DNA of 32,000 nt, taken from Candidatus Baldrarchaeum yapensis. GTDB lineage: Archaea > Asgardarchaeota > Baldrarchaeia > Baldrarchaeales > Baldrarchaeaceae. Positions 26,030 to 28,871 of this stretch are shown in pieces (position 1 is the stretch's first letter; each line of letters starts with the position of its first letter). The position numbers and the translations under genes were made by a program. A model generated the notes under the pieces. The model was given only the letters and a program-made list of their open reading frames with translations, did no database searches and was not told the DNA's origin. Location of the stretch: NCBI GenBank assembly GCA_016840465.1, contig JAEOSH010000003.1, forward strand, positions 1 through 32,000. Direction: 5' to 3'.

Positions 26030-26398
26030 CTAACCACTTCTCTCTATCGCTATTAACCCTATGAGCGCCAAAAAGCACGCTGCAATGGTATACCCATAGG
26101 CATTCTTAATGATATCAGTCTCTAACGGCAAATACATGTACTCATATATCAGTACTCCGATAGTTATGCTAAGAAAGAATCCTCCTAACGCTAGAAGCTC
26201 AGTCTCACGAGGCTTTGCTCCCCCGAGAGCAACGCCTGCTATGAACGTTGTGACGAAGGGTGCTACAAACCAGACCCAGTACTGAAAACCCGTGATTATA
26301 CAAGCAAAGGAAAGGAGCACAACTCCAAACCCGAATATCAATCCTCCGAATAACGCTGCAATTCCGCGCGTCATGACATTCACCCGTGCGGTAGTCAC
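26030..26398 (-). CDS. Small membrane protein (about 4 TM helices), unknown function
   Basis: Hydrophobic 122-aa ORF; GTGA overlap with the mtnA stop. Confidence 0.7.
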   Translation of the reverse strand: MTTARVNVMTRGIAALFGGLIFGFGVVLLSFACIITGFQYWVWFVAPFVTTFIAGVALGGAKPRETELLALGGFFLSITIGVLIYEYMYLPLETDIIKNAYGYTIAACFLALIGLIAIERSG

Positions 26399-27510
26399 TT
26401 CTTATGTGAGCCTCCTCTTATTAAAAGTTGTATGTTCTCCTTAAAGGGTGGCTTCACGAGCCCTTTTTCGGTTATAAACAAAGTTACGTACTCGTGAGGC
26501 GTTACATCGAAAACGGGATTATGCGCCCGTGAGCCAAAGGGCGCTATCCGGACTCGGCGCCATGCTCCCTCATCATCCAATCCCCACACGTAAAATATCT
26601 CATCCTCACTTCTTTCTTCTATTGGTATATTGTCACCGTTGGGACAGTTTAAATCGAATGTTTCGAGAGGAGCTGCAACATAAAAGTTAACGTTATTTGT
26701 TTTTGCAAGTATTGCCAAGGAGTACGTGCCTATCTTATTAGCTACATCGCCATTTGCTGCTATTCTGTCCGCACCAACAAATACGCTTCTTATGAACCCT
26801 TTTCTCATAAAATATCCTGCCGCGCCATCTGATATTATGTAATGTTCTATTCCCTCCATTTCAAGTTCCCATGCAGTCAGTCTCGCGCCCTGGAGCCAAG
26901 GTCTCGTTTCATCGACAAGAACCTTTATTTCTTTACCCTGATAATGCGCCATACGTATGGGCGCCAATGCGGTTCCCCAATCAACAAAAGCCAATGCCCC
27001 AGCATTGCAATGCGTGAGTACAGTATCCCCATCGTTTATGAGTTCGGCTCCAAATTCTCCAATTTTCCTACATATTTCTACACTTTCCTCTGCAATTCTC
27101 TGCGCCTCGTCATACGCGACATCTTTCGCCTCATCTACATTTCCACACTTTCTAACAGCACTCAAGACCCTATTTATATTGTAGAAGAGACTAACGGCTG
27201 TTGGCCTTGATGCGCGGACAACATCTAGCCTATTGTTCAACTCCTTCATGAATTCTTCAAAATTTGAAGTTCTTATCGTATTGGCTGCTTGTGCAACTGC
27301 AAATGCCGCGACAACACCTATCGCACCAGCACCTCTGACTATCATCTCCTTTATCGCGAACGCTGTGGTCTTGTGATCAGGACTTTCGAAAATTTCGAAC
27401 CTGTGGGGAAGTTTCCTCTGATCTATCATTTTAACAACTCTGTTTTCCTCCATCCACACGGTTCTTATTTCCATCTCATTTCCATCGATTTTCACACGCA
27501 CATGCATCAC
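26395..27510 (-). CDS. mtnA: S-methyl-5-thioribose-1-phosphate isomerase (eIF-2B alpha-like family)
   Basis: VRGAGAIG, SRPTAV, LTHCNAGALA, DETRPWLQGARLTAWEL, GADRIAANGDVANKIGTY, FDVTP. THCNAG and QGARLT favour MtnA over ribose-1,5-bisphosphate isomerase. Confidence 0.85.
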   Translation of the reverse strand: MMHVRVKIDGNEMEIRTVWMEENRVVKMIDQRKLPHRFEIFESPDHKTTAFAIKEMIVRGAGAIGVVAAFAVAQAANTIRTSNFEEFMKELNNRLDVVRASRPTAVSLFYNINRVLSAVRKCGNVDEAKDVAYDEAQRIAEESVEICRKIGEFGAELINDGDTVLTHCNAGALAFVDWGTALAPIRMAHYQGKEIKVLVDETRPWLQGARLTAWELEMEGIEHYIISDGAAGYFMRKGFIRSVFVGADRIAANGDVANKIGTYSLAILAKTNNVNFYVAAPLETFDLNCPNGDNIPIEERSEDEIFYVWGLDDEGAWRRVRIAPFGSRAHNPVFDVTPHEYVTLFITEKGLVKPPFKENIQLLIRGGSHKK

Positions 27511-27516
27511 CCTTGT

Positions 27517-27580
27517 CCCCGCTCAGCTACCCCAGGGTTCTCGTCACCCATCCTTTGAGGTGACTCACATCATCGCGGGG
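27517..27580 (-). ncRNA. Box C/D methylation-guide sRNA
   Basis: Minus strand reads CCCCGC-g-ATGATGT(C)-GAGTCACCTCAA-AGGA(D')-TGG-GTGACGA(C')-GAACCCTGGGGTAG-CTGA(D)-GCGGGG. Perfect 6-bp terminal stem, 64 nt, intergenic. Confidence 0.78.
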
Positions 27581-27770
27581 CTAGTTATTAACTGTGTTAC
27601 ATGGACCTATTAAGGAGAGTGGCAATAACAAATGATATGTTACTAAGGGCGTATGACACGAGCTGGTGAAGTAGAGTTACCCTCAGGTTTACTTTGTAAA
27701 GTTTTGCTTATCGAAGGTTTTATGTTTTCAGAAGGCATGTGTTATCTAGTGCACGCAAAAGGTGTAATTT

Positions 27771-28871
27771 ATGGGTTGGTACCTAAGGAGACGTATATAC
27801 ACATTCTCGGAAGGAAAGGCATTCCACGCAATGATTAATGAAAATACATCTCTAATGGTGATGAAACGATCCTCTAAAACGATTTTCATCCTAAAAAAGG
27901 ATCTCCTCAAGTACAAGTTCGATGTTTTCGCAACCGAAGCCCCTATAGTCAATCTGATGGGGGGAGAAGAGCCCTGGGAAAGCATGATCATAAGTTCAGA
28001 AGTTCTTGAGAAGGAAATATTTCCTATAAGCGATAACCTCGTCGAACTCACAAACCACAAGGGTATCCAACTCAAGTTCATAAGGCTCTGCATAGGCGCG
28101 AATATGAGGGACTTCGTAACAATTGACGAAAGCGACCTCGTTGATCAGGGTGTAAGCCCAACATTAGAGGGTCTTAAAGAATTCTTCGTATCGCATAAAG
28201 ATATGATAGTTGGGCTAACAGTGAGAAGGTACGATGGCAGACAGGGAAACTTAATATTCCTCGAGGCAGAAGCAAAATTTCCAGTGAAGGAAATTTCAAC
28301 ATTCAAGGTGTTAATACTCTCGAGCCTCGCTCAGCGTGGAATATACTCGATGAAGCACCATGTGCCGTTCGGCGTCCACGCCTATGTGATCATCGACTGC
28401 ACAGAGATAACCGGATTAGTGATAAAACTTTTGTCAAAACTCGGAGTTGACTGGAGCACCTTGATATTGAGAAGGTCACAAGCAATAGGCGATTGGATCA
28501 AAGTGGAATGTACACTCAATAAAAATAATTTGAGAAGCTTTCTCCATCGCAAGTACACGAGCCTCACTGATATCGATATAAAGGAAATTGTACGCTTTGC
28601 CACTAAAAACGGGGGATCAATCGAAGCAGCATTAATAATGGCGGAAATAATCAATAGGCAGAGAAGAAGGGAGTATAGTCGCGGAGAGTTGCTGGTAGAC
28701 AGAAGAGTACTCGTGGATATAGCTGCAGCTGCAAGTTTAGCCGCGGATCTCTGCGGAGTTGAAGAAGTAGACACATCAATATGGCAAGTAGATCAAGAAG
28801 AAGTTGAGAGAAGAAAGAAAGAATTCCTAAGAGATTTTGGAAGGCTTCTTGGCCTTGAAGCTGAACAATGA
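27771..28871 (+). CDS. Hypothetical protein (366 aa)
   Basis: Long ORF with SD-like GGTG upstream; no confidently recognised family. Confidence 0.7.
   Translation: MGWYLRRRIYTFSEGKAFHAMINENTSLMVMKRSSKTIFILKKDLLKYKFDVFATEAPIVNLMGGEEPWESMIISSEVLEKEIFPISDNLVELTNHKGIQLKFIRLCIGANMRDFVTIDESDLVDQGVSPTLEGLKEFFVSHKDMIVGLTVRRYDGRQGNLIFLEAEAKFPVKEISTFKVLILSSLAQRGIYSMKHHVPFGVHAYVIIDCTEITGLVIKLLSKLGVDWSTLILRRSQAIGDWIKVECTLNKNNLRSFLHRKYTSLTDIDIKEIVRFATKNGGSIEAALIMAEIINRQRRREYSRGELLVDRRVLVDIAAAASLAADLCGVEEVDTSIWQVDQEEVERRKKEFLRDFGRLLGLEAEQ

What the first reader, a model, noticed from the sequence alone, without database searches (positions are those of the whole stretch)
27517..27580. Unannotated box C/D sRNA whose D guide targets the 23S rRNA peptidyl-transferase region
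Seen: C, D', C' and D boxes plus a perfect 6-bp terminal stem. The C'/D' pair covaries (C in GUGACGA opposite G in AGGA, replacing the usual U-U). The D guide CCCUGGGGUAG is complementary to CUACCCCAGGG. Known (recalled): archaeal 23S helix 74 reads about GCUACCC(C/U)(A/G)GGGAUAAC just before the A2451 loop. The N+5 rule predicts 2'-O-methylation of the second C, roughly E. coli position 2441. The sRNA ends 6 nt before the mtnA start and its 3' stem provides the GGGGA SD-like sequence, so it may be processed from, or gate, the mtnA transcript.
Basis: partly seen in the sequence, partly recalled or inferred. Interest (0 to 1): 0.6.

Follow-up and report, generated by a model that had tools for sequence, protein, structure and literature searches.

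The report
Asgard ribosome-methylation guide RNA
This 64-base stretch is a real but ordinary archaeal box C/D guide RNA, the Asgard counterpart of a guide already described in Sulfolobus, Ignicoccus and Pyrobaculum. Both of its arms pair with the organism's own 23S rRNA next to the catalytic centre.

Summary
On the minus strand (27580 to 27517) there is a 6-bp terminal stem, C box AUGAUGU, a 12-nt D' guide, D' AGGA, C' GUGACGA, a 14-nt D guide and D box CUGA.

The D guide pairs over 11 contiguous bp (9 Watson-Crick, 2 G-U) with the genome's own 23S.

It pairs over 8 Watson-Crick bp only 17 nt upstream (own G2647). That pairing is kept by three compensatory changes between Asgard sequences (guide GUCACCUC, rRNA GAGGUGAC) and crenarchaeal ones (GUCAUGCC, GGCAUGAC).

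The RNA is an orthologue of Sac-sR128, IHOsR425 and PCAsR16. Dennis et al. 2015 predicted that the first two target the same two alignment sites (C2715; 2697/2698). Sac-sR128 is expressed and enriched with L7Ae.

The genome encodes fibrillarin, Nop5 and L7Ae, and has about 20 similar sRNAs.

The link to mtnA is not conserved; the conserved neighbour is the divergent upstream gene. Co-transcription with mtnA is plausible but untested.

Earlier agents of this scan judged other C/D sRNAs of this genome ordinary as well. Verdict: new member of a known kind, low to moderate interest.

The parts
27605..27614 (-). Candidate TATA box (CTTAATAGG). It would put the transcription start about 1-4 nt before the terminal stem (about 27581-27584).
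   Evidence: Read from the sequence with the usual archaeal spacing of about 26 nt from TATA centre to start; inference, not tested. A second TATA-like TTAATAA lies at 27591-27585.
27575..27580 (-). 5' strand of the terminal stem (CCCCGC)
   Evidence: Perfect 6-bp complement of 27522-27517.
27567..27573 (-). C box AUGAUGU
   Evidence: TGATG is invariant in 12 homologues. U at position 7 is shared with Sac-sR128 and L044.
27555..27566 (-). D' guide GAGUCACCUCAA (12 nt)
   Evidence: 8 contiguous Watson-Crick pairs with own 23S 2645-2652 (GAGGUGAC), N+5 = G2647. The guide covaries with the rRNA between Asgard and Thermoproteota.
27551..27554 (-). D' box AGGA
   Evidence: GA at positions 3-4. G at position 2 pairs with C5 of the C' box. 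NGGA + UGAC recurs in G003, G004 and L062 and in two other sRNAs of this genome.
27541..27547 (-). C' box GUGACGA, preceded by the 3-nt loop UGG (27548-27550)
27527..27540 (-). D guide GAACCCUGGGGUAG (14-nt spacer)
   Evidence: 11 contiguous pairs (9 Watson-Crick + 2 G-U) with own 23S 2660-2670 (UUACCCCGGGG), N+5 = C2664 = E. coli 2441. ACCCUGGGGUAG is identical in the 12 aligned homologues, but that identity was required by the search pattern.
27523..27526 (-). D box CUGA
27517..27522 (-). 3' strand of the terminal stem (GCGGGG), 6 nt upstream of the mtnA GTG
26395..27510 (-). Downstream gene mtnA (S-methyl-5-thioribose-1-phosphate isomerase family). Probably read through from the sRNA promoter; not part of the guide RNA.
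   Evidence: NF004326, 424 bits. No T-run terminator and no A/T-rich promoter element between the sRNA and the start codon.
27771..28871 (+). Divergent 366-aa gene of unknown function. It is the conserved neighbour of this sRNA within the order.
   Evidence: 48-49% identical orthologues lie divergently upstream of the sRNA in G003 and G004.

Best explanation
A dual-guide archaeal box C/D sRNA of an Asgard archaeon (same order as 'Ca. Baldrarchaeota' MAGs). Inferred mechanism, from established box C/D biology: L7Ae binds the terminal C/D k-turn and the internal C'/D' k-loop, and a Nop5 dimer brings two fibrillarins. The D guide pairs with nascent 23S at UUACCCCGGGG (3' strand of helix 74, next to the peptidyl-transferase ring), so fibrillarin 2'-O-methylates own C2664 (E. 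coli 2441; C2715 of the pan-archaeal alignment). The D' guide pairs with GAGGUGAC 17 nt upstream and places own G2647 (alignment position 2698, about E. coli 2421-2424) in the methylation register. Holding two neighbouring segments may also help domain V fold. The gene probably has its own TATA promoter, and transcription likely runs on into mtnA. Shown here: boxes, stem, both complementarities, guide-target covariation, orthology to published sRNAs, and presence of the RNP proteins. Inferred: expression, RNP assembly, the methylations themselves, the promoter and the read-through.
For: Anatomy.
Full-length though sub-threshold match to Rfam snoPyro_CD.
D guide: its best site in the own 23S is 2660-2670 (11 bp). 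The same site is present in the 23S of the same-order genome G001. Only 4% of shuffled guides do as well.
D' guide: 8 Watson-Crick bp at 2645-2652. Only 0.2% of shuffled guides give such a hit within 60 nt of the D site.
Covariation: in the three genomes with both an sRNA copy and an assembled 23S, crenarchaeal copies carry GUCAUGCC (GUCUUGCC in L035, i.e. one G-U pair) and their 23S reads GGCAUGAC; Asgard copies carry GUCACCUC, and the own and G001 23S read GAGGUGAC. That is three compensatory changes.
No perfect complement of the D guide exists elsewhere in six genomes, apart from the sRNA gene itself and one extra copy in each of two genomes.
Published orthologues: Sac-sR128 (D to 23S C2715, D' to G2697; 5613 reads), IHOsR425 (C2715 and C2698) and PCAsR16, in the supplement of PMC4644070. 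Sac-sR128 is enriched in L7Ae RIP-seq, supplement of PMC5539422.
RNP proteins in the genome: fibrillarin 349 bits, Nop5 259 bits, L7Ae 109 bits.
About 20 sister sRNAs in the genome.
Against: The D duplex contains two G-U pairs, one of them next to the D box. A match this good arises for 4% of shuffled guides, so on its own it is only suggestive.
The D' duplex is only 8 bp, with guide positions 1-2 unpaired, which may be marginal for methylation at high temperature.
The D spacer is 14 nt, not the canonical 12.
The locus scores 18.8 bits against a gathering score of 45 for Rfam RF00095.
The rRNA contig (C59) belongs to a binned draft genome, although G001 of the same order has the same target sequences.
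Confidence: 0.9

Rival explanations
1. Besides, or instead of, guiding methylation, the element is a cis-acting leader of mtnA. While it stays in the mRNA, the L7Ae-bound k-turn and the terminal stem sit 6 nt before the start codon. They hold the G-rich SD-like stretch and so gate translation; alternatively, excision of the sRNA leaves a nearly leaderless mtnA mRNA.
For: There is a 6-nt gap to the GTG, no oligo-T terminator and no A/T-rich promoter element between the sRNA and mtnA, so read-through is likely. Precedents exist: L7Ae represses translation through k-turns in 5' UTRs (PMC5539422), and sRNA genes overlapping 5' ends lower expression of the downstream gene (Tripp et al. 2017 as reviewed in PMC7994747).
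Against: The downstream gene differs in every relative examined: a methylpurine-DNA glycosylase 115 nt away in G003, an unknown ORF in G008, and no co-directional downstream ORF in G004 (the adjacent 391-aa ORF is on the other strand). What is conserved is both guides and their rRNA targets, which points to selection on guide function. A second TATA-like element (27591-27585) could start an mtnA transcript inside the sRNA. Archaeal sRNA genes are known to sit anywhere that is transcribed.
Confidence: 0.12
2. It is a single-guide sRNA in practice. Only the D arm methylates; the 8-bp D' arm is too short to direct methylation and serves only as an anchor or chaperone, or is decaying.
For: The D' duplex is 8 bp with guide positions 1-2 unpaired. 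Relatives L062 and G008 can form 10 and 9 bp if their 23S reads as the own one does (neither 23S is assembled), which shows the own version is the weakest. The review in PMC7994747 describes chaperone roles for guide pairs.
Against: The D' guide is identical in three genomes of two families, and it changed in step with the rRNA between phyla; that is hard to explain without pairing. The N+5 position is paired (C-G). Dennis et al. predicted methylation at the same or an adjacent site for IHOsR425, Sac-sR128, Mka sR126 and Mma sR103.
Confidence: 0.25
3. It is a chance assembly of short motifs in an intergenic region, with no RNA function.
For: The box motifs are short and the D' and C' boxes are degenerate. 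The Rfam score is below threshold.
Against: The pattern control gives 20 hits against 1. Homologues with both guides intact occur in AT-rich genomes whose flanks are unrelated. Guide and target covary.
Confidence: 0.01

Closest known systems
Sac-sR128 (Sulfolobus acidocaldarius) and IHOsR425 (Ignicoccus hospitalis), Dennis et al. 2015, PMC4644070
   Same: Same architecture and the same two targets. The D guide ..CC(U/C)GGGGUA(G/A) is predicted to methylate 23S C2715 of the pan-archaeal alignment (E. coli 2441). The D' guide GAGUC.. targets 2697 or 2698, which is 17-18 nt upstream. Sac-sR128 even shares the AUGAUGU C box. Sac-sR128 is expressed and L7Ae-bound.
   Different: The D' guide core is GUCACCUC instead of GUCAUGCC / GUCGUGCU, matching the Asgard 23S (GAGGUGAC instead of GGCAUGAC). 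The D'/C' boxes are AGGA/GUGACGA (a G-C pair) instead of UUGA/UGAUGA (U-U). The own copy has a strong 6-bp G+C terminal stem, and its host phylum is Asgard rather than Thermoproteota.
Pyrobaculum sR16 family (PCAsR16; Lui et al. 2018, PMC6009581; Dennis et al. 2015)
   Same: GUGAUGU C box, D' guide GAGUCAUGCC and D guide ..CCAGGGGUAG-CUGA: recognisably the same gene family.
   Different: The Pyrobaculum D guide has A where the others have U or C, opposite an A in the Pca/Tte 23S. If I read the flattened table correctly, Dennis et al. gave no robust target for it.
MKAsR16 (Methanopyrus kandleri), Dennis et al. 2015
   Same: Its D guide CCCCUGGGGUA is predicted to target the same 23S C2715 and has the same U opposite G.
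   Different: The other guide targets a different site (C2772), so only one arm is shared. This could be convergence or guide shuffling.
Rfam RF00095 snoPyro_CD (Pyrococcus C/D sRNAs)
   Same: Overall box layout and length; the alignment is end to end.
   Different: It scores 18.8 bits against a gathering score of 45. It is not a member of that Rfam family, which models Pyrococcus sequences.

Membership tests
Archaeal box C/D sRNA (methylation guide) | C box (RUGAUGA) near the 5' end and D box (CUGA) near the 3' end | tested here: met
   AUGAUGU (6 of 7; position 7 is U, which can pair with the G before the D box) and CUGA.
Archaeal box C/D sRNA (methylation guide) | Internal D' and C' boxes able to form a k-loop (GA dinucleotides on both strands) | tested here: met
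   AGGA and GUGACGA with a 3-nt loop. Position D'2 / C'5 is G-C here and in G003, G004 and L062; A-U in L042, L043 and L045; U-U in G008, L044 and Sac-sR128; and U-A, U-G or C-U in L040, L039/L035/L037 and L036.
Archaeal box C/D sRNA (methylation guide) | Guide spacers of about 12 nt between boxes | tested here: inconclusive
   The D' spacer is 12 nt. The D spacer is 14 nt, and roughly 13-17 nt in family members depending on where the C' box is placed. This lies within natural variation but is not canonical.
Archaeal box C/D sRNA (methylation guide) | K-turn geometry: helix, 3-nt bulge, tandem G-A pairs | tested here: met
   At the sequence level only: 6-bp stem, bulge G-A-U, then G-A / A-G, U-U and G-C between AUGAUGU and CUGA. 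The 3D structure was not tested.
Archaeal box C/D sRNA (methylation guide) | Guide complementary to rRNA or tRNA, with the N+5 nucleotide paired | tested here: met
   D guide: 11 bp (2 G-U), N+5 is G-C at own 23S C2664. D' guide: 8 bp, N+5 is C-G at G2647.
Archaeal box C/D sRNA (methylation guide) | The genome encodes L7Ae, Nop5 and fibrillarin | tested here: met
   C64:1307-1987 fibrillarin (349 bits), C64:2098-2775 Nop (259 bits), C67:55831-56109 L7Ae (109 bits).
Archaeal box C/D sRNA (methylation guide) | Expressed as a stable RNA of about 50-70 nt bound by L7Ae; target nucleotide 2'-O-methylated | not testable with these tools
Only the orthologue Sac-sR128 has RNA-seq and L7Ae RIP-seq support.
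Sac-sR128 / IHOsR425 / PCAsR16 orthologous guide family | D guide ..CCNGGGGUA(G/A) directed at alignment position C2715, together with a D' guide GAGUC.. directed at 2697/2698 | tested here: met
Rfam RF00095 snoPyro_CD | Score at or above the gathering threshold (45 bits) | tested here: not met
   18.8 bits, E = 0.2. Not filed as a member.

The most novel reading that the evidence does not exclude
The sRNA doubles as the 5' leader of mtnA. One promoter drives both, and assembly of the L7Ae/Nop5/fibrillarin particle on the leader (whose 3' stem strand carries the G-rich SD-like stretch 6 nt before the start codon) either blocks translation or triggers excision that leaves a nearly leaderless mRNA. 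Output of a methionine-salvage enzyme would then be tied to the pool of free C/D RNP proteins. Separately, sharing of both guides between Asgard and Thermoproteota, and of one guide with Methanopyrus, would make this one of the oldest traceable guide RNAs, if it was inherited vertically.
Probability: 0.1. Interest if true: 0.5.

Novelty: new member of a known kind. Interest (0 to 1): 0.27.

Why it matters
It adds an Asgard orthologue to a dual-guide family so far described in Thermoproteota. The three compensatory guide/rRNA changes are clean comparative evidence that the D' arm really pairs with its 23S site. It also helps annotate C/D sRNAs in Asgard genomes, where Rfam finds none in this window, and it marks two predicted 2'-O-methylation sites beside the peptidyl-transferase ring of an Asgard ribosome. 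It does not change what is known about how C/D sRNAs work.

Tried and rejected
- Rfam at gathering thresholds finds nothing in the window or in 11 homologous loci. Only a sub-threshold snoPyro_CD match appears in E-value mode.
- I looked for a perfect complement of the D guide (CTACCCCAGGG) as a better target. In six genomes it occurs only as the antisense of the sRNA gene itself, plus one extra copy in each of two genomes. The wobble-containing 23S site is therefore the target.
- No convincing D' or D site was found in the assembled part of the 16S (positions about 706-1467 only). The missing 5' half of the 16S and the tRNAs were not scanned.
- The 23S of G003, G004 and G008 is not assembled, so the guide-target match could be checked only in the own genome and G001 among Asgards.
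- The bacterial-type promoter/terminator scan is uninformative for an archaeon.
- The naked-RNA minimum-free-energy fold pairs the two guides with each other (z = -2.1). I rejected this as the functional structure because the RNP keeps guides single-stranded and the pairing is not needed to explain conservation.
- mtnA-specific riboswitch or leader idea: rejected as the primary function because the downstream gene is not conserved.
- The MCM_bind lead for the neighbouring protein has no Pfam support.

Full report
1. WHAT IS THERE

The feature lies on the minus strand. Window 27580->27517 reads:
- CCCCGC (5' stem)
- G
- AUGAUGU (C box)
- GAGUCACCUCAA (D' guide, 12 nt)
- AGGA (D' box)
- UGG (loop)
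- GUGACGA (C' box)
- GAACCCUGGGGUAG (D guide, 14 nt)
- CUGA (D box)
- GCGGGG (3' stem)

The two ends form a perfect 6-bp helix. The layout fits a k-turn:
- stem;
- 3-nt bulge G-A-U;
- G-A / A-G pairs;
- U-U;
- G-C.

The RNA ends 6 nt before GTG 27510, the first possible start of a 371-aa ORF. That ORF is an mtnA-family isomerase (NF004326, 424 bits).

Rfam at gathering thresholds reports nothing in the window. In E-value mode the locus aligns end to end with snoPyro_CD at 18.8 bits, well below the 45-bit cut-off.

2. MORE THAN CHANCE

A strict four-box pattern gives 20 hits in the 2.27-Mb genome and 1 in the reversed genome. Thirteen of the real hits, and none of the control hits, also show good rRNA complementarity; this locus is one of the thirteen.

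The genome encodes fibrillarin, Nop5 (adjacent genes on C64) and L7Ae.

3. ORGANISM

The window is contig C84 of a 100-contig draft genome (45.9% G+C). No genome of its own family or genus was among the relatives searched. Its order-level relatives include a MAG titled 'Candidatus Baldrarchaeota', which belongs to the Asgard lineage (kingdom Promethearchaeati).

The 23S rRNA is on C59:1031-4195. Only the 3' half of the 16S is assembled.

4. TARGETS

D guide:
- Its best site in the own 23S is 2660-2670, UUACCCCGGGG.
- It forms 11 contiguous pairs, 9 Watson-Crick plus 2 G-U (guide positions 1 and 8).
- The nucleotide opposite the fifth guide position is C2664, the second C.
- A pairwise alignment with an E. 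coli 23S, corrected by the A2451 anchor, places it at E. coli 2441. The anchor is from established numbering.
- The supplementary alignment of Dennis et al. 2015 places the same C at column 2715.
- Only 4% of shuffled D guides find a site this good, so alone it is only suggestive.

- It forms 8 contiguous Watson-Crick pairs with 2645-2652 (GAGGUGAC), 17 nt upstream, with G2647 in the N+5 register.
- Only 0.2% of shuffled D' guides give such a hit within 60 nt of the D site.
- G2647 corresponds to alignment column 2698. That is about E. coli 2421 by gapped alignment (after the 2-nt numbering correction) and 2424 by ungapped alignment.

5. COMPARATIVE EVIDENCE

- Two same-order genomes with about 35% G+C carry a homologue in which both guides are identical while the flanks are unrelated.
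- An exact-pattern scan of species-representative genomes found the same D guide and D box in Desulfurococcaceae, Thermosphaera, Sulfolobaceae and other Thermoproteota.
- A profile search of 151 Asgard genomes added one more family, G008.
- A metagenome scan added further Baldr-like and G008-like copies and one new variant, L062.
- The crenarchaeal copies carry GUCAUGCC-type D' cores (GUCUUGCC, GUCGUGCC or GUUAUGCC in four copies). The three crenarchaeal 23S that could be recovered read GGCAUGAC.
- The Asgard copies carry GUCACCUC, and the own and G001 23S read GAGGUGAC.
- These are three compensatory changes, and I take them as the strongest evidence that the D' arm pairs with this site.
- The D target UUACCCCGGGG is unchanged in all these rRNAs.
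- The perfect complement of the D guide occurs nowhere else in six genomes, apart from the antisense of the sRNA gene and one extra copy in each of two genomes.

D' position 2 and C' position 5 are:
- G and C in the own copy (AGGA/GUGACGA), in G003/G004 (GGGA/AUGACUU) and in L062 (CGGA/AUGACUU);
- A and U in three Desulfurococcaceae copies (GAGA/AUGAUCU);
- U and U in G008, L044, Sac-sR128 and PCAsR16;
- U-A, U-G or C-U in the remaining crenarchaeal copies
.

Two other sRNAs of this genome also combine AGGA with AUGACUG. The remark is supported.

7. ALREADY KNOWN

The supplement of Dennis et al. 2015 (PMC4644070) lists these relatives:
- Sac-sR128, with 5613 reads. It has the same AUGAUGU C box, D' guide GAGUCAUGCC and D guide AACCCUGGGGUAA. 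Predicted targets are 23S C2715 (D) and G2697 (D').
- IHOsR425, with predicted targets C2715 and C2698. These are exactly the two columns derived here.
- PCAsR16, of the Pyrobaculum sR16 family.
- MKAsR16, which shares only the D arm (C2715).

Sac-sR128 is enriched in L7Ae RIP-seq (PMC5539422 supplement).

The window's RNA is therefore an Asgard orthologue of a published dual-guide family. I found no paper describing C/D sRNAs of Asgard archaea in the held library (neither PMC7994747 nor PMC8339473 discusses them). Earlier agents of this scan have already judged several other C/D sRNAs of this same genome real but ordinary.

8. CONTEXT AND THE mtnA IDEA

- The divergent upstream gene (27771-28871, 366 aa, no family hit) has 48-49% identical orthologues. 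They sit in the same divergent position next to the sRNA in G003 and G004.
- The downstream gene is not conserved. It is mtnA here, a methylpurine-DNA glycosylase 115 nt away in G003 and an unknown ORF in G008; G004 has no co-directional downstream ORF, the adjacent one being on the other strand.
- A TATA-like CTTAATAGG at 27614-27606 would start transcription 1-4 nt before the stem. This is inference from the usual archaeal spacing.
- No oligo-T stretch and no A/T-rich element lies between the sRNA and the mtnA start, so read-through into mtnA is likely.
- This arrangement is common. Most archaeal sRNA genes lie in or next to other transcripts, and they mature because the RNP protects them. 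sRNA genes that overlap the 5' end of an ORF lower expression of the downstream gene (PMC7994747). L7Ae can repress translation through k-turns in leaders (PMC5539422).
- A gating effect on mtnA is therefore possible as a side effect. Nothing indicates it is the selected function.

9. VERDICT

This is a real, functional-looking dual-guide box C/D sRNA, with confidence 0.9. It is a new (Asgard) member of a known guide family. Interest is low to moderate.

Noticed in passing
window 27771-28871 (+); L038 3032-4135 (-); L041 1754-3016 (+): A conserved 366-aa protein with no Pfam or NCBIfam family keeps its divergent position next to this sRNA in three genomes of the order (48-49% identity). The ESM Atlas feature search puts eukaryotic MCM-binding-protein (PF09739) clusters nearest, at 0.83, which is below the tool's own line for a lead. 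Pfam at E<=10 does not support it.
   Followed up: partly
L001 (G000:C59) 23S position 2671; L034 (G001): The peptidyl-transferase ring reads GGGGGUAAC (G at the position of E. coli A2448) in this genome and in G001. The three crenarchaeal 23S examined read GGGGAUAAC. Nanoarchaeum has the same G in the alignment of Dennis et al. 2015.
   Followed up: no
family-wide (L035-L045, L057-L063, Sac-sR128, MKAsR16): The D guide keeps a U opposite a G of the rRNA (CCCUGGGG against CCCCGGGG) from Methanopyrus through Sulfolobus to Asgard; only IHOsR425 has the Watson-Crick C. A fully complementary guide would contain the self-complementary CCCCGGGG, so the wobble may avoid guide dimerisation. This is speculation.
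   Followed up: no
G000 contigs C9, C30, C56, C74, C69, C1, C60, C32, C23, C12 (coordinates): At least a dozen further dual-guide C/D sRNA candidates have 10-13 bp rRNA complementarity. Several use AGGA or GAGA D' boxes with AUGACUG C' boxes.
   Followed up: partly
L001 (own 23S, 3165 nt) and L034 (G001 23S, 3632 nt): Both 23S genes are longer than the 2987-position archaeal model, which suggests expansion segments or introns.
   Followed up: no
window 27585-27591 (-): A second TATA-like element (TTAATAA) lies just upstream of the sRNA. It would start transcription inside the D' guide, which is a possible way to make an mtnA mRNA without a functional sRNA.
   Followed up: no
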